This document shows positions 1 through 30,772 of a stretch of 64,000 nucleotides of DNA, piece by piece; position 1 is the stretch's first letter; each line of letters starts with the position of its first letter. The translations under genes were made by a program, and so were the position numbers. The notes under the pieces were generated by a model. It saw only the letters and a program-made list of their open reading frames with translations. It had not been told where the DNA came from and did not search any database. The DNA lies in the NCBI GenBank assembly GCA_963803045.1, contig CAWDLC010000019.1, positions 17,542 to 81,541 on the forward strand, written 5' to 3'. The stretch comes from Candidatus Binataceae bacterium. GTDB lineage: Bacteria > Desulfobacterota > Binatia > Binatales > Binataceae.

Positions 1-999
1 GCTTCACTTTCGCCGTCGAGGGTGAACCCACGGTCGACTTGATTGCCCGGGGAGTGCGAGCAGGCGCGCGAGGAACAGTGCGACGTGGTCGTCGCCATCG
101 GCGGAGGCAGCGTCATCGACGCGGGAAAAGCCATTGCCGCGCTGCTCACCAATCCCGGCGAGTTGATGGATTATTTGGAGGTGGTGGGCAAGGGGAATGC
201 CCTCCAGAATCCTGCCGCGCCGTTCATCGCCGTGCCCACCACGGCGGGGACGGGGTCAGAGGTCACGCGCAATGCGGTGTTGGGCGTGCCCGCGCGGCAA
301 GTGAAAGTCAGCCTGCGCAGCCCGTTCCTTCTGCCGCGCCTGGCGGTGGTGGACCCGGAACTGACTCTCGGCCTGCCGCCGGCGATTACCGCGCGCACCG
401 GACTCGACGCGCTGACGCAGTTGATTGAGGCCTATGTTTCGATCCGCTCGAACCCCGTGACCGACGGATTCTGCGTGCAGGGAATTCCGCTCGCGGCGCG
501 TTCGCTGCGCCGGGCGTTTCACCAGGGGCATGACCCGGAAGCGCGGCGCGATATGTCGCTCGCGGCGCTGTTCAGCGGATTGGCGCTCGCCAACGCCGGC
601 TTGGGCGTCGTCCACGGATTTGCCGCTCCCCTGGGCGGAAGGTTTCCCGCGCCGCACGGAGCGATTTGCGCGGCCATCCTGCCCTATGGGATGGAAATCA
701 ACCTGCGCGCCCTGCGTGCTCGCGCGCCCCAAAGCGATGCGCTGCGCCGTTACCAGGAGGTGGCGCGCATGCTCACGGGGCGGCCCGACGCCACCGCCGA
801 GGACGGAATTGCGTGGACGCGGGAGATTTGCCGGGAACTCGAAATCCCGCCCCTCAAGGCCTATGGGATCGGGGAACAAGACGTTGCCGATCGCTCATCG
901 CGGAAGCAGCCAAGGCGAGCAGCATGAAAGGGAATCCTCTGGCGCTCACGCCGGAGGAGCTGGCGCGAAGTACTGGACATTGTCGATTGCCGAGTGTGA
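1..999 (+). CDS. iron-containing (group III) alcohol dehydrogenase, 5'-partial, with two compensating frame changes near 890 and 965
   Basis: The frame-1 translation (ORF 43..927) has the Fe-ADH motifs VVVAIGGGSVIDAGKAIA and VPTTAGTGSEVT. The C-terminus continues in frame 3 (LIAEAAKASSMKGNPLALTPEELAR, inside ORF 666..1094), then returns to frame 1 (EVLDIVDCRV) and stops at TGA 997-999. The gene is open at the window start. Confidence 0.8.
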
Positions 1000-1162
1000 C
1001 GATTTCCGGTTTCGCGCTACAGAGCGTTTCTCACAGAGGTCGCAGAATGGCTCCAGAGCGCGAGAAACCCCGCTCTTCTCCGTGTCCTCTGTGAGCACTC
1101 CGTGGCCTCTGTGTGAAACGCCCTTAAGCCGGAAAACTGGGGGCTAGGCGAAACTTTCCCGT

Positions 1163-2105
1163 CTATTCCCGTTTCATTTGCAGATTCTGTAACGCTTCCG
1201 CCTCCGTCTTGGCGTTCAGTGCCTTTGCGAGTGCTTCGACCGTCGGCTTGAGCTCCCGGCCTTCTGCCAAGTAAAGTCTGATACATCAGTGGATAATACT
1301 TCGTGTAGGTCTCATCAAAGGCCAGACCGGCATTGTTGTTGGCGGCCAGACACCGGTTGAACGATTTCGGCTCGGGGCTGATGGCCGTGCACGCCTGGTG
1401 AATTTCCTCGAAAGCCTGCTGCTTTTGCTCCAGCGCGTCGTGCTCGGAAATCTGGCCGGCGCGCGCGGCGGCGTACAACTGGCTCAATTGGGCGTGATAG
1501 CGATTCACGATTTCAGCTTTGCGGGCGAACAGTTCCGGCTCGCGCTGAAGGTTTTGATAGACCTCCGAATTCTCGCCAAACTTCTGCCGCGCCACTTCGG
1601 CGGCGGTGAGAAATCCGATCAGGGTTGCAGACGCTTCGCCCCAGGCTGCCGGCAGTTTGCGTAATTCCTTATTGGCGTGGAAATCCTCGTGCGGAACGAC
1701 CACCAGAAAGCGTTCCACCGACTCGTGCGCCAAGGAGGCGGAGACGGGCGTCTTGCCGCTGGCGTTGGCGTCCATGGGGTAAAAGAACACATCGTATTTT
1801 TGCGTGTCGAGCGGGCAGCCCGCCTTCGTTCCCTGCAACAGTTGCAGCTCCTGATAGGAATCGGGGAGTTCGAGTTTGCCGGTGTAGTAGCAGCGATAAG
1901 CGACGGCGGATTCCGCTGACTCCTTGTGGAAGTTCTTCGTCCGGCGGAAACCCAGTTTCTTTTCCAAACGCTTGACGGCGCTGACCAGGTCTTTGCGGTC
2001 CGCAGCGTTGGGATTTTGGGGCGTGTCGGTGGCAGCAGCAAGGCCCGCAAGCAGCGCCACGAGCACGAGGGTCAACAAAAAGAGCCATGGCGTGGATATC
2101 TTCAC
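1163..2105 (-). CDS. secreted HExxH metallopeptidase-like protein (putative aminopeptidase family), one frame change near 1280
   Basis: ORF 1017..2105 opens with a signal peptide (MKISTPWLFLLTLVLVALLAGLAAA) and contains VVPHEDFH (HExxH). After ...TKYYPLMYQ a protein-like tail (LYLAEGRELKPTVEALAKALNAKTEAEALQNLQMKRE*) lies in another frame and stops at 1163-1165. The family name is from memory only. Confidence 0.5.
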
Positions 2106-2235
2106 ACTTTCATTGTAAACGTATTTCCCGCGGCCGGAGTAGCGACCGTAGCACGGCGCGGCGGAGCCGCATGCTCAGCTTGACTTGTACATACGATTAC
2201 GCTATATTATATATACAACACTTGAGGGTAGGCAC

Positions 2236-2424
2236 ATGGCGGTGACACTCACATCGATAAGGCTGGATACCCATCTGGCGGACGAAGCCCGAAAAGTTCT
2301 CGGCGTGAAATCCCGGACGGAGGCGGTGCATGTAGCGCTCCGGGAGATTGTGGCGCTGAAGCGATTCAAGGACTTGATGAGGAAGCACGCGGGAAAGCTC
2401 TCGTTCGCGGGTCACGGTGAGTAA
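2236..2424 (+). CDS. vapB: type II antitoxin, VapB-like
   Basis: A 62-aa product (MAVTLTSIRLDTHLADEARKVLGVKSRTEAVHVALREIV...) starts at ATG 2236. Its end overlaps the downstream PIN gene start by 8 nt, which is classic TA architecture. Confidence 0.75.
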   Translation: MAVTLTSIRLDTHLADEARKVLGVKSRTEAVHVALREIVALKRFKDLMRKHAGKLSFAGHGE

Positions 2425-2824
2425 CCTCGTCATCTTCGACACTTCGATCTTCATCGATCATCTGCGCACCGGATGTCATCAGCAGCGAATCGAATCGCTG
2501 ACCGGTCTCATCCGAACGTCTTCCGTGGTTTTGGCGGAGTTGTGGCGTGGCGCGACGGAACCGGCGGAGCGGGAGTTCCTGCGAGCGCTGGAGAAGAACC
2601 ATCGCATCCTGACGCCCACGGAAAATAATTGGCTGGAGTCTGGCCGGCTGCTGGGGCAAATTTACGCGGATAAAGGCTTCACGCCCGACAAACTGCGCGA
2701 CCTGCATTTCGACGTGCTCATCGCGCTCACCGCGCGGTCTCACGGCGCCCGGCTGATCACCTCCAACCGCGCCGATTTTGAAATGATCAGCGCCTACCGG
2801 AAATTTCAATTGGAAATATGGTAG
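2417..2824 (+). CDS. vapC: PIN-domain ribonuclease toxin VapC
   Basis: A 135-aa ORF with a GTG start. The N-terminal LVIFDTSIFIDHL carries the PIN acidic residue, and ...DVLIALTARSHGARLITSNRADFE is a typical VapC C-terminal motif. Confidence 0.85.
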   Translation: MSNLVIFDTSIFIDHLRTGCHQQRIESLTGLIRTSSVVLAELWRGATEPAEREFLRALEKNHRILTPTENNWLESGRLLGQIYADKGFTPDKLRDLHFDVLIALTARSHGARLITSNRADFEMISAYRKFQLEIW

Positions 2825-2847
2825 CTCCAGCCCCGGCAGTAAAAAGA

Positions 2848-2904
2848 GCAACAAAAAGGTTGCGTTTTCCGCACTGCCGCGCTAATCTGCAACCTGGAGG
2901 TTGC
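2848..2904 (+). promoter_or_regulatory. two GCAAC(C)-N-GGTTGC palindromes upstream of the SRPBCC/ArsR pair (candidate ArsR operator)
   Basis: GCAACaaaaagGTTGC (2848-2863, followed by GTTTTCC) and GCAACCtggaGGTTGC (2889-2904) both occur here. The second overlaps the GGAGG ribosome-binding site 10 nt before ATG 2911. ArsR/SmtB repressors typically bind such dyads. Confidence 0.3.
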
Positions 2905-2910
2905 CTAACA

Positions 2911-3364
2911 ATGGATCAATCGAATTGAAAAGCGTATTGAACTCAAGGCGCCGGTTTCGCGGGTCTGGCGGGCGCTGACGGATTACCGTGAGTTCGGCGA
3001 GTGGTTTCGCGTGAAACTGGAGGGCCCGTTCGTGCCGGGCCAGGTCTCGCGCGGCCATATTACCTACCCTGGCTACGAGCACGTCAAATGGGAGGCCGTG
3101 GTGCAGAAGATGGAGCCCGAACGGCTCTTTTCCTTCACCTGGCACCCTTATTCCGTCGATCCCAAAATAGATTACTCGAAGGAGACGCCCACGCTCGTCG
3201 AATTCCGGCTGGAGAAGACCGCGACCGGCACACTGCTTCTGCTCACGGAGTCCGGTTTCGACAAAATCCCCAGCGACCGCCGCCTGGAAGCATTCCGCAT
3301 GAATGACGGCGGCTGGACAGAGCAAATGAAGAATATTGAGAGCTATGTCGCACAAAAGCCGTAG
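2911..3364 (+). CDS. SRPBCC (AHSA1/START-like) family protein; start region has a one-base frame problem
   Basis: ORF 3011..3364, plus the same frame upstream, reads NRIEKRIELKAPVSRVWRALTDYREFGEWFRVKLEG...FRMNDGGWTEQMKNIESY. That frame is closed by TAA at 2906-2908 and has no start codon. The only ATG with an RBS (2911) is one base out of frame. Confidence 0.7.
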
Positions 3365-3692
3365 CAGCATGACCGCCAAACGGCAGGCTCATGCATCCGT
3401 CTTTGCCGCGCTGGGCGACGAGACGCGGCTATCGCTGGTGGCGAAGCTTTGCCGCGGGCAGCCGCGTTCGATCTCTCAGCTCACCGCGGGCTCCAAGCTT
3501 ACCCGGCAGGCGATTACCAAGCATCTTCGCGTGTTGGAGAGGGCGGAAATCGTGCACAGCGTCCGTACGGGCCGCGAGAGCCGGTTTGAACTCGATCCGG
3601 AGCCGATGGAAGAACTCAAGAAATACCTCGATCTCGTCTCCGCGCAGTGGGATCAGGCCCTGTCCAGGCTAAAATCGTTCGTCGAGGGTTGA
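3345..3692 (+). CDS. ArsR/SmtB family transcriptional regulator
   Basis: The winged-helix signature is FAALGDETRLSLVAKLCRGQPRSISQLTAGSKLTRQAITKHLRVLERAEIVHSVRTGRESRFEL. The start is ATG 3345 (alternatives 3336 or 3369). It overlaps the end of the SRPBCC gene, a common pairing. Confidence 0.85.
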   Translation: MSHKSRSSMTAKRQAHASVFAALGDETRLSLVAKLCRGQPRSISQLTAGSKLTRQAITKHLRVLERAEIVHSVRTGRESRFELDPEPMEELKKYLDLVSAQWDQALSRLKSFVEG

Positions 3693-4022
3693 GTGCTTGT
3701 GCCCTTTGATCTCGTCGTAAACGATGATCGACATCACGACGAGAACCCACACGGGGAAGACTCCCATTCCCGGAATGGCTTCGACGATCAGCCCTGGCAA
3801 AAGGGCCCACCTTCGACCCAGAATCAGGAACAGCAGGCCTGCCGTTCCCAGGTCAAGCACCCACTGGATGGGCGGAGCAAATTCGGTCCACATGGATAAG
3901 AAATCCGAGATCGCAGCCACGCCAAAAGCGATGGCAAATCTGGCGCGGGAGACACGTTTGATCGGAACAATCTCCTGCCCCGGGCTGACCACGACAGGCC
4001 GATTTTCGGTTTTCATCAACAT
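3669..4022 (-). CDS. small hypothetical membrane protein
   Basis: A 117-aa product starts at ATG 4022 (MLMKTENRP...). It has two or three hydrophobic spans (FAIAFGVAAISDFL, LGTAGLLFLILG, GVFPVWVLVVMSIIVY). I do not recognise a family. Confidence 0.45.
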   Translation of the reverse strand: MLMKTENRPVVVSPGQEIVPIKRVSRARFAIAFGVAAISDFLSMWTEFAPPIQWVLDLGTAGLLFLILGRRWALLPGLIVEAIPGMGVFPVWVLVVMSIIVYDEIKGHKHSTLDERF

Positions 4023-4375
4023 GGTGTCCCCCGCCCTGATCGCATCTTCTTCAAGCCCATCGTGCCATGTTCGCGCGCGATCCGCAAGCGAGCGCGATGG
4101 CCCGACCAAGTCTGTAAAAATTGGTGACGTTGCAAGTAGATCTGGATGCCGAGGCTCTGAGCGGCAACTGTTGCCTTTTGCTCGCCGCGACTCTGCGCGG
4201 TTCACTACTGCTATCAGCGTTCGAACGGGAAGGCTTCCGCACTCCATATTTTGTTGGATGTCGCCGCGTCAGGTGGGCGGGGTGAGCAGTCCGCGTGCAC
4301 TTCCTCTTCTGGTGGGCAAGGCGCTCTCTAAGTACAATCAAGTCCGGCTCGCGCGCTGCCTGAGTTCCTAAACCC

Positions 4376-5245
4376 ATGTCAAAACGGTTGATCTCCATGC
4401 GTAGTGTCCGCCTTCTTATTCTTCTGCTAATCGTTCTCACCGTGGCTTTGCCCGCGCCCGCGCAGAACCCTTGGGAGCGCTTGCCAGCCACTCCTGCGCT
4501 ACCCAAGCCGGAGCGCAGCGGCACCGTCCCGGTGAACGGCATCCGCATGTGGTACGCGGTATTTGGCCACGGGTCTCCGGTGATTCTCCTGCACGGCGGG
4601 CTTGCCAACTCGAACTATTGGGGACTTCAGATTCCCGGCGCTTGCCCCACACTTTGAAGTGATCGTGGTTGACAGCCGCGGTCATGGCCGCAGCACTCGC
4701 GATGGCGAGCCGATCACCTATCACCTGATGGCGATGGATGTGCTTGCGCTGATGGATGCTCTGCACATCCCCAAAGCCGCGCTGGTGGGTTGGAGCGATG
4801 GCGCGATCATCGGCCTCGACATCGCCATCCATCATCCCGAGCGGTTAACCAAGCTCTTTGCCTTCGGAGCGAATTCCAACCTCTCCGGCGTGAAAAGCAG
4901 CGAGGGCAGCGCCATCGTTTGCCGCCTACCAGAGCCGCACCCGGGAAGAATACCGCAAGCTCTCGCCGACGCCTGCGGAGTTCAATGCGTTCCGCGAGCA
5001 ATTGAACAAGATGTGGACTACGCGAGCCGAACTTTTCCGATGCTCAACTCCGCAGCATCACTATGCCCACCTGGATCGTGGATGGCGACCGCGACGAGAT
5101 CATCAAACGCGAAGATACCGACCACATGGCGAGTCTCATCCCCGGCGCCGGCGAACTCATCCTGCCCCGCACCAGCCATTTCGCGTTTCTTCAGGACCCG
5201 AAACAATTCAATGAAGCCTTGCTGCACTTTCTTGGCAGCGAGTAA
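4376..5245 (+). CDS. alpha/beta-fold hydrolase with signal peptide; three +1 frame changes (about 4632, 4912, 5025)
   Basis: Four pieces in successive frames join cleanly. They are: MSKRL...GSPVILLHGGLANSNYWGLQIP; then ALAPHFEVIVVDSRGHGRST...LVGWSDGAIIGL (nucleophile elbow GWSDG); then PSFAAYQSRTREEYRKLSPTPAEFNAFREQLNKMW; then EPNFSDAQLRSITMPTWIVDGDRDEII...SHFAFLQDPKQFNEALLHFLGSE*. Confidence 0.8.
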
Positions 5246-5299
5246 CCACGATGATGGGCAGACCCGGGCCACTTCGCTTCCGGCAAACGGGCGTGCCTT

Positions 5300-5399
5300 G
5301 TAGCGCGGGCATCCTGCCCGCTGGGGCGTGGGCATCCTGCCCGCGCACATCGCGCGAGCGGGACGCTCCCGCCGACAGCGGGCAAGATGCCCGCGCTAC
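5300..5399. repeat. REP-like cluster of four short GC-rich hairpins bounded by a 22-bp inverted repeat
   Basis: The hairpins are GCGGGCAtccTGCCCGC (5306-5322), GTGGGCAtccTGCCCGC (5328-5344), GCGGGAcgcTCCCGC (5358-5372) and GCGGGCAagaTGCCCGC (5378-5394). The outer 22-mers at 5300-5321 and 5378-5399 are reverse complements with one mismatch. The cluster lies in the intergenic region between the hydrolase and mazE. Confidence 0.6.
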
Positions 5400-5478
5400 G
5401 CCCCTTTCGCTGCTATGTCGCACACCCCCGGCAAACCGTCCGCTTGCAGCCCGGTGGACATGTGGTTATACTCAGGGT

Positions 5479-5715
5479 ATGAAAACTGCCGTATCCATTC
5501 CTGATGACGTTTACCATGGCGCGGAGCGTCTGGCGCGCCGCGCGAAGAAGTCGCGCAGCCGGCTGTATGGTGATGCGCTCAAGGAATACTTGGCCCGCCA
5601 CGCGCCGGACGAGGTCACTGAGGCGATGAACCGGGCGTGCGCGGAGGTGGGCGAAGCGAATGATCCCTTCGTTTCGGCAGCCTCGCGCCGCATCCTGGAG
5701 CGAAGCGAGTGGTAA
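5479..5715 (+). CDS. mazE: ribbon-helix-helix/MazE-like antitoxin
   Basis: A 78-aa product, MKTAVSIPDDVYHGAERLARRAKKSRSRLYGDALKEYLARH..., starts at ATG 5479. Its end overlaps the MazF gene start by 7 nt. Confidence 0.7.
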   Translation: MKTAVSIPDDVYHGAERLARRAKKSRSRLYGDALKEYLARHAPDEVTEAMNRACAEVGEANDPFVSAASRRILERSEW

Positions 5716-6053
5716 TCTCCCAAGGCGAGATCTGGTGGGCGGATCTTCCCGCCCCAGCGCGCTCCGGCCCGGGATTCCGCAGGCCGGTTGTCGTCGTGCA
5801 GGGTGATGCATTAAATCGGAGTCGCATTTCCACCGTGGTCTGTGTTCCGCTGACCAGCAATCTCAAATGGGCCTTGGCCCCGGGAAATGTCCACCTGCGG
5901 GCACGTCACACCGGCCTGCCGAAAGATTCCGTCGCCAATGTTTCCCTGATCGTCAGTATCGATAAGGAGTTCCTCACCAAACGCGTGGGCAAACTTCCAC
6001 CCTCCAAACTGCAATTAGTGCTCGCGGGGATCGATACTGTCCTGGGTAAGTAG
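5709..6053 (+). CDS. mazF: MazF/PemK family endoribonuclease toxin
   Basis: A 114-aa ORF with a GTG start. GEIWWADLPAPARSGPGFRRPVVVVQGDALN...VVCVPLTS...NVSLIVSIDK matches the MazF/PemK fold signature. Confidence 0.85.
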   Translation: MVISQGEIWWADLPAPARSGPGFRRPVVVVQGDALNRSRISTVVCVPLTSNLKWALAPGNVHLRARHTGLPKDSVANVSLIVSIDKEFLTKRVGKLPPSKLQLVLAGIDTVLGK

Positions 6054-6312
6054 CAGCCAAGGTCAGCGCCGGGTGCCGCTCGAATTTTATGTTGCTCGCG
6101 CAACGGCGGGGGAGCATGATGGCGTGTGTGCGGTGAGAGCCATGCAGGTTGAGGTTGGGACTGGCAAACCGAAGAGACGCGACACATAATGACGGCTGGC
6201 CCGCAGATGCACCGATAGACCTTTCAGATGTGGCGGAAGTAGTGGCCGCTGTGGGTATCCAAATAGACGATCGTGTACGCGCTCACGTAAGTTCTCAAGT
6301 GAGGCCTGATCC

Positions 6313-7229
6313 TTGGAAGAACTAACGACAGCATACTACGAAAACCTCTTTCGCCTTCGGTACGTCGAGTCTAAGGGTGATGTCTTTCAGGACTTCTTCT
6401 CAACCGTCATGGAAATGAGATATCCCGGCGATTTTGTTCGCGTCCGCCCTTGGGGGAACCTCGGAGACCACAAAAACGACGGCTATCTCGCTTCCAAGCG
6501 ACACCTCTTTCAGTGTTATGCACCCCGCGAAATGAAGATGACGGAATGCAAGGCCAAGATCAATAAGGATTTCGCCGGAGCGCTTCCATATTGGAAGGAT
6601 TATTTCGACAAGTGGTTTTTTACGCACAACAATATCGATGGCCTTCCAGCGGACATTCTGAAACTCCTTCTCGATCTTAGTACGGCACATGCCCCCGTGT
6701 GCGCTGCCCAGTGGGGGTATGGTGAGCTGCGGCAGGAATTCAAGCAACTATCTGAGGTAGACATCTCGAAGCTTCTCGGTCCTGCGCCAAGCCGGAAGGA
6801 GATGGTAGATTTGCGGCTTGAGGATGTGAAAAGGTTGCTGGAGCACGTCGCTCTTCTGCCCGAGCCGCGAGCGGTCGATGTAAGACTCGTCCCCGCTGAC
6901 AAACTCGAATATAACCAGTTGTCGCAAGCCGTCGGGACATTGTTGAAGGCCGGCATGACGCGTTCTGAGCTCGTGAAAAAATACCTCCGTGGTATTGCCG
7001 ATCAAACCAGTTACGATCGCACGGCCGCCGCGTTCCGATTGCGCTATCAGGAGTTGAAAGGAGAGGCCGCGCCCCAGACGATATTTTCGCCGGGCTGCAG
7101 AGGTTCATTGCCGGTGCGGGCGTCGCGAGCCCATCACATCAAGCGGCAACACTTGCCATTCTGGCGTTTTTCTTTGAGGCGTGCGAGATTTTTGAGCGGC
7201 CGCCCGAATTGACGGGTACCTTGTCATGA
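6313..7229 (+). CDS. ABC-3C-like system, first (effector-type) component; one frame change near 7070
   Basis: This is ORF 6313..7212 with a TTG start. The N-terminal region has RPWGNLGDHKNDGYLASKRHLFQCYAP (a GD-x3-DG...Q-x-[K/Y] pattern like Mrr/PD-(D/E)xK nucleases). The C-terminal half is helical. The true tail (RAPDDIFAGLQRFIAGAGVASPSHQAATLAILAFFFEACEIFERPPELTGTLS*) is in another frame and ends with the TGA of an ATGA overlap at 7226-7229. Confidence 0.55.
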
Positions 7230-7477
7230 TTCTTCCTACCAAAGGTCTGGCGCTTGACCGGGCGCTTCTCTCCGTGGGCGCAGAAGTTCTTCGACGACTG
7301 GACAGGCCCAAGACCGTATCACGGCTATGGGATCAAGTGCGGCACCCTAAGAGCAGCCTTCTCGAATCAGTTCCGTATGAATGGTTTCTTCATTCGCTCG
7401 ACTTGTTGTATCTGTGCGGCGCGATCGATTTTGAAGATGGCCAAATTCGCCGGACTCACCGGAGGGCGACCCGATGA
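7226..7477 (+). CDS. ABC-3C-like system, middle component (small helical protein)
   Basis: An 83-aa ORF (MILPTKGLALDRALLSVGAEVLRRLDRPKTVSRLWDQV...) has ATGA overlaps with both neighbours. Its size and its position between the effector and the ATPase fit the 'middle component'. Confidence 0.55.
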   Translation: MILPTKGLALDRALLSVGAEVLRRLDRPKTVSRLWDQVRHPKSSLLESVPYEWFLHSLDLLYLCGAIDFEDGQIRRTHRRATR

Positions 7478-9260
7478 TTCATTGTGTGTTTAGCTCCCTC
7501 AAGACATTCAAAACTCTGCACTTTGCGAGGGGACTCAACATCCTACTTTCAGATAAAATGCCCGACGCAACCGAACAACAGACTCGTAATCGCACGGGGA
7601 AGACAAGCTTCATTGAATTGGTTCATTTCATTTGTGGGGGAAACTGCCGCGCGGACTCCATATTCAGGGCACCAGAACTTATACCGTCGTCGTATGGGTT
7701 AGAGTTTGATGTCTTCGACCAAGTCGTGCAAGTTTCACGCTCCGGCTCTGAGCCATCGAAAATCATCTTGGAGCGTGGTGATGCCACCAAATGGCCGAAG
7801 CAACCGCAGGCCGAGGATGACCCACCCCGCAAGGTCATAAAGAACACGGATTGGCGGACAGTATTGGGACGTGGGTTTTTCGCCATTGATGATGAATCTG
7901 ACTCCGAAGAAGATGAGGGAAGCGGACGACGGCCCACTTTCCGTTCTCTGTTTTCATACTTCGTACGGCGGGAGAACAGCGGAGGGACATGCGAGATCCC
8001 GCTCAACAATACCGGCATGAACAATCGGTGACGACTCAAATCGCGTTGGCATTTCTAATCGGCTTCGACTGGACGATCGCTCAACAGTGGGAAGCGGTAA
8101 GGCAAAAGGGAGAAGCAGATTCGCGAATTGAAGCGAATTGTCGGCCAAGGTGTATTGACGGACGTGCTTGACTCAGCGGCTTCGCTACGGTCTCGTCTTG
8201 TTGTCGCGGACGAGAAGCTGAAGCGCATTATCAGGAATTTATCATCTTTTCGGGTCCACGAACAATATCACGCGTTCGAGCAGGAAGCTTCCGGGATTAC
8301 GCGGGAGATTGCTGGGGTTTCCGATGAAAACACTCTTGATCGCGCCTACATTGCGAACCTCGAAGCCGCGATGGAGGCGGAATCGCCGCCCGCTCCAGAC
8401 GATCTGATTCGTCTTTATGAAGAGGCGGGCATTGTGCTTCCTGACCTGGTGCGGCGACGGGATCGAGGATGTTCTGGTTTTCCACGATTCCGTAATGCGC
8501 AACCGCCGCAGCTACTTGCAAGGGGAATACTCGGCAGCTTCGGAGCGGGTGAAGAATCGCGAGGCGCGGCGGGAAGGACTTGATCAGCGGCGGTCCCAGC
8601 TGATGGAAATGTTGAAGTCACATGGTGCACTAGAACAATTCATAGCCCTACAGGCAGAGCAAGGGAGACTCCAAGGCGAGGTTGAGGCTCTCCGCCGCAG
8701 GTACGAGGCGGCAGCCCAACTAGAGTCAACAAGCTCTTCCCTCGAATCTGAACGTGTCAACTTGGTGGCGAGGCTACGGCAAGAGTTTGAGGAAAGAAGC
8801 GCTGTTCTTGACGATGCGATCAGAGGATTCAGCGCCATCGTTGAGGAACTGTACGGAGAGTCCGGGCGCATCGAGTTCCACGCCAAAAACAATGGGCCGG
8901 AGGTTCGAATCGCTATACCCGGTGATCGGAGTCGGGGTATCGGAAATATGGAAATATTTTGCTTCGACATGATGCTTCAGTTAATGTGTGCCAGGCAGAA
9001 AATCGGGCCGGGTTTTTTGATCCATGACAGCCATCTTTTCGATGGAGTCGATCCGCGTCAGACGGCTCGAAGCCTTGGCCGTCGGCGCACGGCTGGCCGA
9101 GAAAATCGGATTTCAATATATCGTCACCCTGAACTCAGATGTCTTGGCTGAGTTGTCATCAGCGGATTTCAATGCAGATAGGTACTTGGTATCCCAACGT
9201 CTCACGGATGCCACAGAGGACGGAGGCCTTTTTGGAATCCGCTTTGAACCTCCCGGCATC
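7474..9260 (+). CDS. ABC-3C-like system, coiled-coil ABC/SMC-type ATPase (DUF2326/YydD-like); four frame changes (about 7990, 8110, 8455, 9070); 3' end uncertain
   Basis: ORF pieces 7474..8031, 7989..8171, 8128..8583, 8417..9151 and 9024..9542 join into about 590 aa. The protein has a P-loop ([18 protein letters not shown]) and a long coiled coil ([50 protein letters not shown]). It then has [19 protein letters not shown], a Walker B/D-loop ([14 protein letters not shown]) and QYIVTLNSD...GGLFGIRFE. The last frame has no stop before 9542. An indel in the T5 run at 9229-9233 would give a stop at 9244-9246. Confidence 0.65.
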
Positions 9261-9678
9261 GAACAAACGGAGGACGGCAGGAGCCGCCCCTTGCGTCGTC
9301 GTGGTCGTAGCGCAGCCGCCGCTCCTGAGAATCCGACTCCGCAGCCGGCCGCAGCACAACGCGGCCCGCGCCGAAACGTCCGACCACTTCGTGCGGAATT
9401 GTACCGTCCTGGATCGGCACGCGCACCAGGCTTTTCTTGGCCCGATCGACGCCCTTGCGAATCGCCTCGGGCACTTCGTTGGCCTTGCCCAAGCCAAATC
9501 CCACCAGCCCGTTGTGATCGCCTGCGACCACCAGCGCGCTGAAGCTGAAGCGCCGTCCGCCCTTGACGACCTTGGCGACGCGGTTGATATGCACGACCTT
9601 CTCTTTGATCTCGAGGCCCTGCGGATCGATTCGCTGCGTAACAGAGCTTTCTCTTAGCGTTCGTTGCCTGCCGTTCAA
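9202..9678 (-). pseudogene. rpsE: 30S ribosomal protein S5 (uS5), 3'-truncated; homology ends at about 9340
   Basis: The first 113 codons are canonical ([49 protein letters not shown]...[14 protein letters not shown]). The remaining 45 codons ([15 protein letters not shown]...) are non-homologous and run antisense into the ATPase gene's 3' end. Confidence 0.8.
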
Positions 9679-10037
9679 AATTTTAACCCCGCTTCGCGCG
9701 CCGCATCGGCCAGCGCCTTGACGCGGCCGTGATAGAGAAATCCGTTTCGGTCGAACACGACGCTCGAAATCCCGCTCTTAAGGCATCGCTCGGCAATCGC
9801 CTTGCCCACGGCCTTGGCCGCCGCCAGGTTGCGCTTGCTCTTGAGCCCCTCGCGCACGCCGGCGGTGGCGGTCGAAGCCGCGGCGAGCGTACGTCCGCTC
9901 TCGTCGGAGATAACCTGGACGTAAATATGATGCAGCGAGCGGAAGACCGAGAGCCGCGGGCGCTGGTCGTTGCCGACCGCCTTGCGCCGCACCCGGTTCT
10001 GGCGCAGCTTGCGTTTTTCTGATCGCTCTACAGCCAT
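9675..10037 (-). CDS. rplR: 50S ribosomal protein L18
   Basis: A 120-aa intact ORF with [20 protein letters not shown]...[28 protein letters not shown], at the expected spc-operon position. Confidence 0.95.
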
Positions 10038-10052
10038 AATCGCAACTAACCT

Positions 10053-10604
10053 TTATGCCGCGGTCGAGCCCGCCGCAGCCTTGCCTGCTTTGCGGCGAAT
10101 GGTCTCGGTCGCGTACTTGATTCCCTTGCCCTTGTACGGTTCGGGCGGCCTGAGTTCGCGAATCTGGGCCGCGACCGTCCCGAGCAGCTGCCGGTCGGCG
10201 CTCTCGAGGGTAACGGTCACCTGTTTCTCGACTTTGGCGGTGACCCCGGGCGGAAGCTGATAGACGATCGGATGCGAATAGCCGAGCGTCAGGTTGACTT
10301 GCTGGCCCTTGGCTTCCGCGCGGTAGCCCACGCCGTTTATCTCGAGCACGCGGGTAAATCCCTTGCCGACGCCCTCGACCATGTTGGCGATCAATTTGCG
10401 CATGAGACCATGTATGGCGCGCTCTTCGCTGCTATCGCCCGGCCGCTTCACGACGATTTGCGAGTCCTTGATCTCGGCGGTGAAGCCGGGATGAAGCTGG
10501 AGCTCGAGCTTGCCCTTGGGGCCCTCGACTTTAACCGTCGTGCCGGCGACCGACGCCTTGACGCTCTTATCAAGATGAATCGGCAGTCTTCCTATCCGCG
10601 ACAT
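10053..10604 (-). CDS. rplF: 50S ribosomal protein L6
   Basis: A 183-aa intact ORF with MSRIGRLPI...INGVGYRAE...LGYSHPIVY...PEPYKGKGIKY. Confidence 0.95.
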   Translation of the reverse strand: MSRIGRLPIHLDKSVKASVAGTTVKVEGPKGKLELQLHPGFTAEIKDSQIVVKRPGDSSEERAIHGLMRKLIANMVEGVGKGFTRVLEINGVGYRAEAKGQQVNLTLGYSHPIVYQLPPGVTAKVEKQVTVTLESADRQLLGTVAAQIRELRPPEPYKGKGIKYATETIRRKAGKAAAGSTAA

Positions 10605-10610
10605 CGCTGA

Positions 10611-11009
10611 TCACCAAACCCTGCAGAGGATTTCGCCGCCCACGTTCCTGCGCCGCGCCTCGCGTCCGGTCATTACGCCGAGCGGCGTCGATACGATTTG
10701 CACGCCCATCGCGCCCCGCACCTTGCCGATCTCTGCGGCGCCCGCGTAGCGTCGATTGCTCGGCTTGCTGATGCGGTCGATTCCGCGAATCACCGATTCG
10801 CGCGTCGGTGAGTAACGAAGTTTGAGCGCCAGCATCTTCTTGGGCACTTCACCGCCAACCTCGACGCCGCCGAGGAAACCTTCGGCCATCAGCACGCGGC
10901 AAATTGCTTCGCGCATGCGGGAATGGGGCACCGTGAGTTCATTGTACCGCGCGCGCATCGCATTGCGGATTCGCGTAAGCAGTTCTGCGATCGGATCGGT
11001 CTGCGACAT
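10611..11009 (-). CDS. rpsH: 30S ribosomal protein S8
   Basis: A 132-aa intact ORF with DPIAELLTRIRNA...GGEILCRVW. Confidence 0.95.
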   Translation of the reverse strand: MSQTDPIAELLTRIRNAMRARYNELTVPHSRMREAICRVLMAEGFLGGVEVGGEVPKKMLALKLRYSPTRESVIRGIDRISKPSNRRYAGAAEIGKVRGAMGVQIVSTPLGVMTGREARRRNVGGEILCRVW

Positions 11010-11021
11010 GATTCGTCTCTT

Positions 11022-11207
11022 TTACCAGCTCGCCTTGATCACGCCCGGCAACTTGCCGTCGAGCGCCAGTTTGCGCAGACAAAGCCTGCACATTTTGAAA
11101 CGCCGATAGTACGCGCGCGCGCGTCCGCATAGCGGACAGCGGTTGTACCGGCGCACTTTGAATTTTGGTTCACGGGTTGCCTTAACCCGCAGGCACATTT
11201 TCGCCAT
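11022..11207 (-). CDS. rpsN: 30S ribosomal protein S14, type Z (zinc-binding)
   Basis: A 61-aa ORF with CPLCGR...CRLC and the GVIKASW end. Confidence 0.95.
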
Positions 11208-11217
11208 TCAACTATCC

Positions 11218-12050
11218 TTATGCCCCCTGCGCCGGTGCCAGCGCCGCCGCGGCTGCGGCGGCGGCCTTGGCGGCAGCTGCGGCCTCGGCGGCGGCCGCAG
11301 CCTTGGCCGCGTCCGCCTCGCGCTCCGCCGCTCCGCGCATCGGCATCCCGAGCGCGCGGAGCAGCGTCAGCCCCTCGAAGTCACTGCGCGCCGTAGTCGT
11401 GATCGAAATTGTCAATCCCTTCACCTTCTCGACCTTGTCGAGGTTGAGTTCGGGAAAAATCGTATGTTCCTTCAGCCCGAGCGAATAGTTGCCGCGGCCG
11501 TCGAACGCCTTGTCGCTGACGCCGCGGAAGTCGCGCACGCGCGGCAGCGAGATATTCACCAGCCGGTCGAAAAACTCCCACATCTTTTCGCGCCGCAGCG
11601 TTACCATCACGCCAATCGGCATCCCCTGGCGCAGCTTGAAATTCGAAATCGCCTTGCGCGCGCGCGTCAACACCGGCTTCTGCCCGGCGATCACTTGACA
11701 GCTCTTCGAGCGCGGAGTCGAGAATTTTGACGTTGTCGCGCGCTTCCTGGAGCGCCATGTTAATCGTGATCTTCTCAAGGCGCGGCACCCGCATCCGGTT
11801 GTCTATCTTGAGCTCGCGCATCAGGGCCGGCGCGATCTCATTGTCGAACCGAACCGCAGGCGGGCCGGCAGCTTGGGCTCGGGCGGCAGCGGCGCCGCAG
11901 CCGCGGCCTTGGCTTGTTCGGCCGCCTGCTTGCTCTGAGCCTGGCGGGCCTTGCCTTCGCGCTTGGCCTTGGCCGCCTGATCGGACTTGGCGGTCTGTTC
12001 GGACTTGGCGGCTGCTCGGCCTTGTCGGGCTTTCCCTTTTTGTCGGCCAT
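11218..12050 (-). CDS. rplE: 50S ribosomal protein L5 with low-complexity N- and C-terminal extensions; three frame changes (about 12010, 11853, 11698)
   Basis: The conserved core is [36 protein letters not shown]...[46 protein letters not shown]. It is split over ORFs 11381..11821 and 11218..11778. The only start is ATG 12050 (TGATG overlap with the rplX stop), which opens [36 protein letters not shown].... Confidence 0.85.

Positions 12051-17944: not shown

Positions 17945-19146
<1,202 letters not shown>

Positions 19147-22345: not shown

Positions 22346-30772
<8,427 letters not shown>

What the first reader, a model, noticed from the sequence alone, without database searches (positions are those of the whole stretch)
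6313..9260. Three-gene ABC-3C-like conflict operon (effector / middle component / coiled-coil ABC ATPase) in a lower-GC islet
Three co-directional ORFs are linked by 4-nt ATGA stop/start overlaps at 7226-7229 and 7474-7477. After joining five frame pieces, gene 3 gives about 590 aa. It has an N-terminal P-loop ([18 protein letters not shown]) and a long heptad-rich coiled coil ([27 protein letters not shown]...). It then has a signature-like [19 protein letters not shown], Walker B/D-loop [14 protein letters not shown] and [10 protein letters not shown] associate this layout with the DUF2326/YydD-type ATPases of the computationally defined ABC-three-component systems, from the 2020 classification of ABC ATPases by Aravind and colleagues. 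Gene 2 (83 aa, helical) sits in the 'middle component' position. Gene 1 (about 305 aa) has an N-terminal GD-x3-DG...FQCY pattern reminiscent of Mrr/PD-(D/E)xK nucleases and a helical C-terminal half. To my knowledge no member of this class has been tested experimentally. The operon lies directly beside MazEF and near VapBC, which is a defence-island context. Hand GC counts on 60-nt lines are 45% (6361-6420), 40% (7501-7560), 52% (7621-7680) and 63% (8641-8700), against 63% in mazF (5761-5820).
Basis: partly seen in the sequence, partly recalled or inferred. Interest (0 to 1): 0.8.

Follow-up and report, generated by a model that had tools for sequence, protein, structure and literature searches.

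The report
Lamassu-like ABC-3C defence operon, assembly-damaged
This is a three-gene bacterial anti-phage operon of the already known ABC-3C / type II Lamassu kind, and the copy here is broken by what are most likely sequencing indels and sits on a wrongly joined contig, so it is an ordinary new member whose only unannotated part is its nuclease-like effector domain.

Summary
Three co-directional genes run from 6313 to 9336, with ATGA overlaps at 7226-7229 and 7474-7477. The operon has 54% GC against 60-62% in the flanks.

Profile searches confirm the ABC-3C reading:
- Gene 1 carries a CTD10 domain.
- Gene 2 is middle component MC6.
- Gene 3 is a DUF2326 ATPase and matches PADLOC PDC-M68B over its full length at 5e-146.
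- All 41 relatives of gene 3 that I scanned also match LmuB models.

The literature equates ABC-3C with type II Lamassu, which has been tested and solved by cryo-EM. "No member tested" is therefore wrong for the class. I found no test of this subfamily.

The N-domain of gene 1 has no Pfam or PADLOC model. Its predicted fold is restriction-endonuclease-like, but it lacks the canonical strand-3 lysine. It also heads uncharacterised STAND NTPases.

The frame changes (one in gene 1, four in gene 3) are most likely consensus errors. An ortholog that is 99.7% identical at the substitution level is intact, and rpoB, rpoC and tuf in the same window are also frameshifted.

The contig is a chimera of Terriglobia and Binatota DNA. 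The join at 9337-9339 cuts off the last four codons of gene 3.

Verdict: new member of a known kind, low to moderate interest.

The parts
6313..7229 (+). Gene 1, an LmuA-like effector protein. It is 305 aa after bridging a 1-nt deletion at about 7064 (GGG to GG). TTG start; GAGG lies 7 nt upstream.
   Evidence: It is 98% identical to the intact 305-aa ortholog in L001/L002. There are 334 homologs, nearly all 300-306 aa.
6313..6816 (+). N-terminal effector domain of gene 1 (residues 1-168). The predicted fold is restriction-endonuclease-like (alpha-alpha-beta-beta-beta-alpha-beta-alpha-beta). D52, D56, G57, K82 and D86 are invariant; K54 and Y69 are nearly invariant.
   Evidence: AlphaFold2 model, pLDDT 88.5. 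Foldseek top hits are EcoT38I, EcoO109I, XPF/Hef and viral 'restriction endonuclease' proteins, with probability 0.9-1.0, E 6e-4 to 6e-3 and TM 0.45-0.55. No Pfam hit. Residue conservation. The domain is also found on NB-ARC/NACHT/TPR proteins.
6823..7197 (+). All-helical C-terminal domain of gene 1 (residues 171-295), Pfam CTD10. It is the presumed docking and oligomerisation domain.
   Evidence: PF20275 at 5.3e-17. PADLOC PDC-M68A at 1.2e-20, aligned to the C-terminal half of the model only. Helical in the model.
7226..7477 (+). Gene 2, the ABC-3C middle component MC6 (LmuC position). 83 aa, intact, with ATGA overlaps to both neighbours.
   Evidence: PF20293 at 2.9e-18. 100% identical to the L002 copy. 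Same position in all related loci.
7474..9336 (+). Gene 3, a DUF2326 / LmuB-like coiled-coil ABC ATPase. The ortholog is 623 aa. Here the gene has four net frame changes and loses its last 4 codons and stop codon at the junction.
   Evidence: PF10088 at 1e-36 and PDC-M68B at 4.6e-146 over the full length. 97% identical to intact P0001. All 41 family members scanned hit PADLOC LmuB model PDLC03859.
7582..7608 (+). Walker A / P-loop TRNRTGKTS (residues 37-45). T37, R38, G42, K43 and S45 are invariant.
8921..8950 (+). Signature-like motif [11 protein letters not shown]482, S485, G487, N490 and M491 (P0001 numbering) are invariant.
9011..9052 (+). Walker B and D-loop, [14 protein letters not shown]. 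The Walker B aspartate is followed by Ser, not Glu (invariant H-D-S-H).
   Evidence: This matches the hhhhD[Q/S/T/E] described for short LmuB.
7064..7064 (+). 1-nt deletion relative to the intact ortholog. This is the gene 1 frame change.
7986..8034 (+). Cluster of six indel bases (five events) relative to L001, net +2. This is the first frame change of gene 3, and it garbles the conserved MRDPLxNxSMQQIGDAQ stretch.
8108..8108 (+). 1-nt insertion (GG to GGG); frame change.
8463..8463 (+). 1-nt insertion; frame change.
9070..9070 (+). 1-nt insertion (A to AA); frame change.
9337..9339 (.). Contig junction. Similarity to the Terriglobia locus L001 ends at 9336. From 9340 the minus strand encodes ribosomal protein S5, cut after its N-domain, followed by a Binatota-like ribosomal and rpoBC region.
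5479..6053 (+). Context only: an RHH antitoxin (5479-5715) and a PemK/MazF toxin (5709-6053) directly upstream. They lie in the same 99.7%-identical block as the operon.

Best explanation
The region is a type II (short) Lamassu-like ABC-3C anti-phage operon of the DUF2326 / MC6 / CTD10 subfamily, which PADLOC lists as candidate PDC-M68. It sits in a Terriglobia (Acidobacteriota) genome segment.

The proposed mechanism is taken by analogy with solved Lamassu complexes and is inferred, not shown here:
1. A dimer of the coiled-coil ABC ATPase (gene 3) and the small middle component (gene 2) hold the helical CTD10 domain of the effector (gene 1). This keeps the effector monomeric and inactive.
2. 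When the ATPase senses abnormal DNA made during phage or plasmid replication, such as DNA ends or replication intermediates, the effector is released.
3. The effector oligomerises through its CTD.
4. Its restriction-endonuclease-fold N-domain then degrades DNA, which aborts the infection.

The five frame changes in this copy are most likely indel errors of the consensus, so the real operon is probably intact. The 3' truncation comes from a chimeric contig join.
For: Shown here:
- Domain identities come from curated profiles.
- LmuB homology holds for the whole family. 41 of 41 members hit PDLC03859, with a best E of 3.8e-13. 26 of 41 hit PDLC03863, with a best E of 7e-15.
- The ATPase is about 620 aa, has Walker B 'HDS' and has no CxxC hook. 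This agrees with the description of short LmuB in bioRxiv 10.1101/2025.04.02.646746.
- The gene order and tight coupling are conserved in Acidobacteriota, Gammaproteobacteria, Lentisphaerota, Armatimonadota and on plasmids of several phyla.
- The N-domain has a restriction-endonuclease-like fold.
- The N-domain also sits at the N-terminus of NB-ARC/NACHT/TPR proteins, the usual place for effectors.
- D52, K54, D56, K82 and D86 are invariant or nearly invariant in 149 divergent clusters.

From the literature:
- ABC-3C is type II Lamassu.
- All three genes and the ATPase site are needed for defence, and defence works by abortive infection.
- The effector is sequestered and then released to form tetramers.

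For the indels being errors:
- The ortholog in L001 is intact. Over 6100-9336 it differs by about 8 substitutions but 9 indel events (10 inserted or deleted bases).
- rpoB, rpoC and tuf in the same window carry 3, 2 and 2 frame changes. That is 0.74 per kb, against 1.7 per kb in the operon (Poisson P = 0.07).
Against: - No member of this exact subfamily has been tested in the literature I could search.
- Gene 2 has no hit to PADLOC LmuC models. Gene 1 hits LmuA models only weakly, in 6 of 60 members.
- No solved structure is detectable by sequence for gene 1 or gene 3.
- The fold matches of the N-domain are weak (E no better than 6e-4, TM no more than 0.55). The canonical strand-3 lysine is replaced by Tyr in 144 of 149 clusters, so nuclease activity is not assured.
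- The indel density in the operon is 2.3 times that of the essential genes. Six inserted or deleted bases also cluster within 50 bp, which is not what purely random errors would give.
- I had no reads.
Confidence: 0.75

Rival explanations
1. The operon is a genuinely decayed relic. The frame changes are real mutations that inactivated gene 1 and gene 3 in this strain.
For: - There are five net frame changes in 2.95 kb, which is 2.3 times the density seen in rpoB, rpoC and tuf.
- A cluster of six indel bases lies within 7986-8034.
- Defence systems are often lost. In L006 the gene 1 homolog is destroyed by an IS91-like transposase.
Against: - Essential genes in the same window are also frameshifted, so the consensus is indel-prone.
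- Apart from the indels, the region has only about 8 substitutions in 3.2 kb against an intact ortholog. That indel-to-substitution ratio is typical of long-read error, not of pseudogene decay.
- Neighbouring genes such as the hydrolase at 4376-5303 carry the same kind of single-base insertions.
- A related MAG of the same project also shows a frameshift, in gene 2 (L003).
Confidence: 0.2
2. The N-domain of gene 1 is not a DNase. It has a restriction-endonuclease-like fold but a remodelled or lost active site, and it acts as a binding module or an enzyme of another kind. The output of the system would then differ from that of nuclease Lamassu.
For: - Strand 3 reads Q/A-x-Y instead of (D/E/Q)-x-K. 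Tyr is found in 144 of 149 clusters, and Q67 is replaced by Ala in 23.
- The candidate helix-1 acid E34 is conserved in only 81 of 149 clusters.
- There is no sequence match to Mrr or to any Pfam nuclease family.
- Fold-search E-values are weak.
Against: - The conserved D52-x-K54-x-D56 with K82 and D86 gives enough acidic and basic residues for a metal-dependent nuclease site. PD-(D/E)xK families with relocated catalytic residues are known (my own knowledge, not tested here).
- Every high-probability fold match is a nuclease.
- The domain occupies the effector position in two unrelated sensor architectures.
Confidence: 0.25
3. The operon serves the mobile element or the host DNA metabolism (plasmid stabilisation, repair) and not phage defence.
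For: - LmuB-like ATPases descend from Rad50/SbcC repair proteins.
- Homologs are common on plasmids and lie next to toxin-antitoxin genes.
- There were no matches in the phage collection.
Against: - The full three-part ABC-3C architecture, with a swappable effector head, is the hallmark of conflict systems.
- Tested relatives defend against phages and plasmids.
- The same effector head occurs on STAND NTPases.
Confidence: 0.07

Closest known systems
Type II / short Lamassu (LmuA-LmuC-LmuB; DdmABC of Vibrio cholerae; Salmonella LmuACB)
   Same: - Three co-directional genes: an effector with a variable N-domain and a helical CTD, a small middle protein, and an SMC/Rad50-like ABC ATPase of about 600 aa.
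- Walker B aspartate followed by a non-Glu residue.
- No zinc hook, as in the Vc-Cap4 clade.
- All family members hit LmuB HMMs.
- The CTD and middle component belong to the same Pfam ABC-3C series (CTD7/MC3 in DdmAB, CTD10/MC6 here).
   Different: - A different CTD family and a different MC family.
- The middle component is only 83 aa.
- The effector head is not Cap4, Sir2 or any other annotated domain, and has no Pfam or PADLOC model.
- The ATPase is a DUF2326 type with no sequence-detectable solved structure.
- PADLOC 2.0 files it as candidate PDC-M68, not as Lamassu.
- I found no experimental test.
PADLOC phage-defence candidate PDC-M68 (A and B)
   Same: Gene 3 matches PDC-M68B end to end (1-593 against 1-581 of 581, 4.6e-146). 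The gene 1 CTD matches both PDC-M68A models.
   Different: The PDC-M68A models align only from model position 114 (or 83) onward. Their N-terminal part is a different head, so the effector domain here is a swapped-in variant. PDC-M68 has no model for the middle component.
Lamassu-Mrr / Lamassu-PDDEXK subtypes (Millman et al. 2022)
   Same: A Lamassu core with a restriction-endonuclease-fold effector. The E. coli SE15 Lamassu-Mrr system was shown to defend by abortive infection.
   Different: There is no sequence similarity of the N-domain to E. coli Mrr or to Pfam Mrr_cat. The Q-x-K lysine is absent. No DNA homolog of this subfamily was found in 5,426 complete E. coli genomes.
STAND (NB-ARC/NACHT) antiviral ATPases with N-terminal nuclease effectors (Avs-like)
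   Same: The same N-domain (E 1e-42 to 1e-64) heads proteins with NB-ARC or NACHT modules and TPR/HEAT repeats. Shared effector heads between Lamassu and Avs are reported.
   Different: The sensor module is different. The proteins I tested match no known Avs model in PADLOC 2.0.

Membership tests
ABC-3C (ABC-three component) systems, Pfam CTD/MC/DUF2326 series | Coiled-coil ABC ATPase of the DUF2326/YydD type | tested here: met
   PF10088 at 1e-36, above the curated cut-off (126 against 28.7 bits). Walker A, signature-like motif, Walker B and D-loop are conserved.
ABC-3C (ABC-three component) systems, Pfam CTD/MC/DUF2326 series | Small middle component encoded between the effector and the ATPase | tested here: met
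   PF20293 MC6 at 2.9e-18 (66 against 27.2 bits). The position is conserved in 9 related loci and on plasmids.
ABC-3C (ABC-three component) systems, Pfam CTD/MC/DUF2326 series | Effector protein with a family-specific C-terminal domain | tested here: met
   PF20275 CTD10 at 5.3e-17 on residues 171-295 of gene 1.
ABC-3C (ABC-three component) systems, Pfam CTD/MC/DUF2326 series | N-terminal domain of the effector protein is a toxic or enzymatic head | tested here: inconclusive
   Restriction-endonuclease-like fold with weak statistics. No profile hit. It occupies the effector position on STAND proteins. Activity was not tested.
Lamassu (short / type II) | LmuB: SMC/Rad50-like ATPase homologous to known LmuB, about 600 aa, Walker B hhhhD[Q/S/T/E] | tested here: met
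   41 of 41 family members hit PADLOC LmuB PDLC03859 (best 3.8e-13) and 26 of 41 hit PDLC03863. Length 582-623 aa with an invariant HDS. Criterion taken.
Lamassu (short / type II) | LmuC homolog | tested here: not met
   Gene 2 hits no PADLOC LmuC model. Only position, size and the Pfam ABC-3C MC series link it to LmuC. LmuC families are known to be diverse.
Lamassu (short / type II) | LmuA: effector head plus a CTD that docks on LmuB/LmuC | tested here: inconclusive
   The architecture fits. A PADLOC LmuA model is hit by only 6 of 60 members, at E no better than 2e-4.
Lamassu (short / type II) | Protects against phage or plasmids by abortive infection and needs all three genes | not testable with these tools
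   Shown for other Lamassu systems only.
PADLOC PDC-M68 | PDC-M68B and PDC-M68A proteins encoded side by side | tested here: met
   B at 4.6e-146, full length. A at 1.2e-20, but over the CTD half only.
Mrr / PD-(D/E)xK nucleases | alpha-beta-beta-beta-alpha-beta core fold | tested here: met
   The AlphaFold2 N-domain model (pLDDT 88.5) has this order of elements. Best matches are EcoT38I (probability 0.98, TM 0.45-0.55), EcoO109I and viral restriction endonucleases (probability 1.0, E 6e-4 to 6e-3). This is fold-level and weak.
Mrr / PD-(D/E)xK nucleases | Catalytic D ... (D/E/Q)-x-K, with the lysine on strand 3 | tested here: not met
   Strand 3 reads Q67-x-Y69. Tyr is present in 144 of 149 clusters and never Lys. 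Q67 is Ala in 23. Other invariant charged residues exist: D52, K54, D56, K82 and D86.
Mrr / PD-(D/E)xK nucleases | Sequence match to Mrr_cat or another nuclease profile | tested here: not met
   No Pfam family at E up to 10 for any of 39 members. hhalign against E. coli Mrr gives probability 0.3.

The most novel reading that the evidence does not exclude
The unannotated N-domain of gene 1 defines a new effector family. It has a restriction-endonuclease-like fold with a relocated or altered active site (D-x-K-x-D before strand 2, K-x3-D in the following helix, Tyr in place of the strand-3 lysine). It is shared between a still untested DUF2326 branch of Lamassu and a set of uncharacterised STAND NTPases. 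Its activity could differ from the plain DNA cleavage known for Cap4 Lamassu. The CTD10-like segment inside the ATPase coiled coil could point to a docking mode different from the one in solved Lamassu complexes.
Probability: 0.2. Interest if true: 0.5.

Novelty: new member of a known kind. Interest (0 to 1): 0.27.

Why it matters
At the class level it adds nothing. ABC-3C / Lamassu is a well-studied defence family, and RefSeq already names these proteins.

Two points are useful:
- The DUF2326 / MC6 / CTD10 branch is large. I found more than 1,500 ATPase homologs, spread over many phyla and plasmids. In the literature I could search it has no experimental test and no solved structure.
- Its effector head has no Pfam or PADLOC model, lacks the canonical nuclease lysine, and recurs on STAND NTPases. 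It is a reasonable target for a defined experiment.

For genome scanning the case is also a caution. The frame changes and the odd 3' end come from an indel-prone, chimeric long-read contig and not from biology.

Tried and rejected
- Looking up the source contig through the window's own proteins found nothing on record.
- Sequence searches of the PDB with the gene 1 and gene 3 family profiles gave nothing meaningful, even at E up to 10.
- Foldseek with the two-domain gene 1 model was uninformative (best E 0.02). I therefore modelled the N-domain alone.
- A Pfam scan of 39 N-domain sequences at E up to 10 gave only noise.
- hhalign of the N-domain profile against E. coli Mrr gave no match.
- I tested whether the gene 1 CTD and the middle of gene 3 are homologous to each other, since both hit Pfam CTD10. 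hhalign and hmmsearch found nothing. The likely reason is transitive homology seen through narrow profiles (Neff 2.4), but this is unresolved.
- tblastn of the ATPase against phage genomes gave no match.
- blastn of an enterobacterial homolog operon against all complete E. coli genomes gave no match. The tested E. coli Lamassu-Mrr system could therefore not be compared.
- The Krishnan et al. 2020 paper is not in the held library. What I say about it comes from papers that cite it.
- Rfam found nothing in 1-12000.
- The promoter and terminator scan gave only consensus-level sites: a promoter-like site at 6161-6190 and a weak hairpin at 6070-6082.
- I considered programmed frameshifting and rejected it, because all orthologs are single open frames.
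- I considered a real insertion of Terriglobia DNA into a Binatota rpsE gene and rejected it. It would destroy an essential gene, and both genes at the join are cut.
Full report
**1. What is in the sequence**

Region 6313-9336 holds three co-directional genes on the + strand.
- Gene 1 starts at a TTG at 6313, the same N-terminus as in its homologs. It ends at the TGA of an ATGA overlap at 7226-7229.
- Gene 2 runs 7226-7477 and is an intact 83-codon frame.
- Gene 3 starts in a second ATGA overlap at 7474-7477.

Gene 1 needs one frame change near 7064 to give its 305 residues. Gene 3 must be read in five pieces, in frames 1, 0, 1, 2, 0.

The operon is 54.0% GC, against 60.0% upstream and 61.8% downstream. 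One correction applies: gene 3 continues beyond 9260 to at least 9336.

**2. Identity of the three genes**

Pfam gives these matches:
- CTD10 of ABC-3C systems on residues 171-295 of gene 1 (5e-17).
- ABC-3C middle component 6 on gene 2 (3e-18).
- DUF2326 (1e-36) plus an internal CTD10-like match on gene 3.

PADLOC-DB gives PDC-M68B over the full length of gene 3 (4.6e-146). It gives PDC-M68A on the C-terminal half of gene 1, and weak LmuB hits on gene 3. NCBIfam has nothing relevant.

Gene 3 has more than 1,500 homologs with the same DUF2326 plus CTD10 annotation, at 580-623 aa. Gene 1 has 334 homologs, nearly all 300-306 aa.

The order gene 1, gene 2, gene 3 is kept in MAGs of Acidobacteriota, Thermoanaerobaculia, Gammaproteobacteria, Lentisphaerales and Chthonomonadales. 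It is also kept on 49 plasmids of Proteobacteria, Bacteroidota and Streptomyces. RefSeq already names those plasmid proteins 'ABC-three component system protein' and 'ABC-three component system middle component 6'.

**3. Relation to Lamassu**

Papers in the held library state that type II Lamassu is the system Krishnan et al. called ABC-3C. DdmA and DdmB of Vibrio cholerae carry CTD7 and MC3 of the same Pfam series.

I scanned 41 members of the gene 3 family against PADLOC. All 41 hit LmuB model PDLC03859 (best 3.8e-13) and 26 hit PDLC03863 (best 7e-15). Other ATPase families appear only sporadically.

The family alignment shows these invariant features:
- Walker A: TR..GK.S.
- A signature-like G..S.G..NM.
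- Walker B: H-D-S-H, with Ser where ABC ATPases usually have the catalytic Glu.
- A D-loop: FDGVD.
- No CxxC hook.

Haudiquet et al. describe short LmuB as about 600 aa with Walker B hhhhD[Q/S/T/E] and a variable hook. That fits.

Gene 2 has no PADLOC LmuC hit, and gene 1 hits LmuA only weakly, in 6 of 60 members. I therefore file the system as a Lamassu-like ABC-3C operon of a distinct subfamily, not as a proven Lamassu subtype.

Lamassu systems, including a Lamassu-Mrr system, were shown to defend by abortive infection and to need all three genes. Cryo-EM showed that the effector is sequestered by LmuB2-LmuC and then released to form tetramers. The statement that no member of the class has been tested is therefore out of date. 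I found no paper on DUF2326, PDC-M68, CTD10 or MC6 systems as such.

**4. The effector head**

Residues 1-168 of gene 1 have no Pfam, NCBIfam or PADLOC model. The PDC-M68A models align only with the CTD half, so the reference systems carry a different head.

An AlphaFold2 model of the N-domain (pLDDT 88.5) has two helices, three strands, a helix, a strand, a helix and a strand. The Foldseek results were:
- Against the PDB: EcoT38I (E 6.5e-3, probability 0.98, TM up to 0.55), EcoO109I, XPF/Hef/FAAP24, Cap4 and Can2.
- Against predicted viral structures: mostly proteins named restriction endonuclease, PD-(D/E)XK nuclease or Vsr (best E 6e-4, probability 1.0).

A profile search of 1.84 billion representative proteins found 1,657 clusters with this domain. 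In the best 149, D52, D56, G57, K82 and D86 are invariant and K54 is present in 147. The strand-3 position where Mrr has Q-x-K reads Q/A-x-Y, with Tyr in 144 clusters and never Lys. There is no sequence similarity to E. coli Mrr.

Of the 149 clusters, 24 are 450 aa or longer. Seven of the ten I scanned with Pfam carry NB-ARC, NACHT, AAA or TPR/HEAT modules behind this head, and eight scanned with PADLOC match no known Avs model. The domain thus behaves as a mobile effector head. Its chemistry is inferred, not shown.

**5. Are the frame changes real?**

The best homolog of gene 3 (P0001, 623 aa, intact) lies on contig_6739 of MAG MFD05580.bin.2.50 (locus L001/L002). That locus is syntenic with window 1-9336: hydrolase, RHH antitoxin, PemK toxin, gene 1, gene 2, gene 3.

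Over 6100-9336 the two sequences differ by about 8 substitutions but by 9 indel events covering 10 bases (1 in gene 1 and 8 events, or 9 bases, in gene 3). Most are single-base insertions in the window. The upstream hydrolase carries three more such insertions.

In the same window, essential genes are also frameshifted:
- rpoB is read in four frame pieces.
- rpoC is read in three.
- tuf is read in three.

That is 7 frame changes in 9.5 kb, or 0.74 per kb. The operon has 5 in 2.95 kb, or 1.7 per kb (Poisson P = 0.07).

An indel-prone consensus is the simplest explanation. The related MAGs come from a long-read project, by my reading of the MFD isolate names, and one of them (L003) also has a frameshift, in gene 2. 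The excess density and the cluster of six indel bases at 7986-8034 leave about a one-in-five chance of real decay. Only reads can decide.

**6. The 3' end and the contig**

Similarity to L001 stops at 9336, 14 nt before the stop codon of the ortholog. In L001 the next gene is pntB. In the window, the minus strand from 9340 encodes ribosomal protein S5, cut after its N-domain. Then come the ribosomal protein, tuf and rpoBC genes.

- A gene at 48.8-50.1 kb is 91% identical in protein to Candidatus Binatus soli, and its relatives are Binataceae.
- A gene of the L001 contig has only Terriglobia/Acidobacteriota relatives.

The window is therefore an inter-phylum chimera joined at 9337-9339. The truncation of gene 3 and the apparent position next to a ribosomal operon are artefacts.

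The block 5350-9336 (toxin-antitoxin pair plus operon) is 99.7% identical to L001 at the substitution level, while 1-5100 is only 89-92% identical. This could mean recent transfer of the block. On a contig that is demonstrably chimeric, it could equally be a strain switch.

**7. Context**

The neighbours are an RHH/PemK (MazEF-like) pair at 5479-6053 and a VapB/PIN pair at 2236-2824. These fit a variable region, but they are weak evidence for a defence island. On an Enterobacter kobei IncF plasmid the homologous operon sits next to a RelB antitoxin, a JAB protein and a RES toxin. Low GC, plasmid carriage and 66-78% protein identity across phyla point to horizontal mobility.

**8. Verdict**

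The system is a new member of a known and experimentally characterised class (Lamassu / ABC-3C). It belongs to a subfamily that is annotated in RefSeq and listed as a PADLOC candidate, but that has not been tested as far as I could find.

The proposed mechanism (sequestration of the effector by the ATPase dimer and the middle component, release on sensing aberrant DNA, oligomerisation, DNA cleavage, abortive infection) is carried over from solved Lamassu systems. It is inferred here.

The one element that is not yet described in the libraries at hand is the effector head. This particular copy is a poor substrate for follow-up, because it is damaged by probable assembly errors and lies at a chimeric join. 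Intact orthologs on cultivable plasmids are better.

Noticed in passing
window 9337-9339 (left part 1-9336, right part 9340-64000): The window is an inter-phylum chimera. The left part is syntenic with a Terriglobia/Acidobacteriota MAG contig at 89-99.7% DNA identity. The right part is Binatota-like (acyl-CoA dehydrogenase 91% identical to Ca. Binatus soli). The join cuts both the ABC ATPase gene and rpsE.
   Followed up: yes
window 17948-19146 (tuf), 22397-26601 (rpoC), 26663-30754 (rpoB), minus strand: Essential genes are read in three or four frame pieces (2, 2 and 3 frame changes). The whole consensus is therefore indel-prone, and any pseudogene call in this window is suspect.
   Followed up: partly
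window 4376-5303 (+): An alpha/beta-hydrolase gene is split by three single-base insertions relative to the intact 281-aa ortholog in L001. This stretch is also about 11% diverged from L001, unlike the operon.
   Followed up: partly
window 5350-9336 against 1-5100: There is a sharp change in identity to L001, from about 90% to 99.7% at the substitution level, just upstream of the RHH/PemK pair. Either the toxin-antitoxin plus ABC-3C block was recently transferred, or the assembly switched strains here.
   Followed up: no
L006 1536-2687 (Gammaproteobacteria MAG JBGPMS010000363.1): The gene 1 homolog is replaced by an IS91-like transposase ORF (zinc-binding CPACAH...CPSCG motif). Only the last ~15 residues of gene 1 (ACEIFERPP...) are left in front of intact MC6 and ATPase genes. 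This is a natural knockout of the effector.
   Followed up: partly
L003 5752-6001 (Acidobacteriaceae MAG MFD04434.bin.1.61): The MC6 gene of this related locus is read in two frames. This is another frameshift in a MAG of the same project.
   Followed up: no
window 6823-7197 (gene 1 CTD) and about 8353-8730 (gene 3 residues 294-418): Pfam CTD10 matches both the effector CTD (5e-17) and the middle of the ATPase (3e-15) over the whole model. Family profiles of the two regions show no similarity to each other (hhalign E 0.36; hmmsearch no better than 0.06). This is either transitive homology through a broader family or a heterogeneous Pfam model. It is unexplained.
   Followed up: partly
proteins P0249, P0260, P0285, P0299, P0256, P0267: The gene 1 N-domain also heads long NB-ARC/NACHT/TPR/HEAT proteins, and those scanned against PADLOC 2.0 match no known Avs type there. 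P0262, which was not scanned against PADLOC, carries it in front of a family 2 glycosyltransferase domain.
   Followed up: partly
window 2236-2824 (+): An intact VapB antitoxin (PF09957, 2e-7) and PIN-domain toxin (PF01850, 2e-10) pair, with a 4-8 nt overlap.
   Followed up: yes
window 6054-6312: The 259-nt spacer between mazF and gene 1 holds a weak terminator-like hairpin (6070-6082) and a promoter-like site (6161-6190, 9 of 12 matches). These are consensus matches only. There is no Rfam family in 1-12000.
   Followed up: partly
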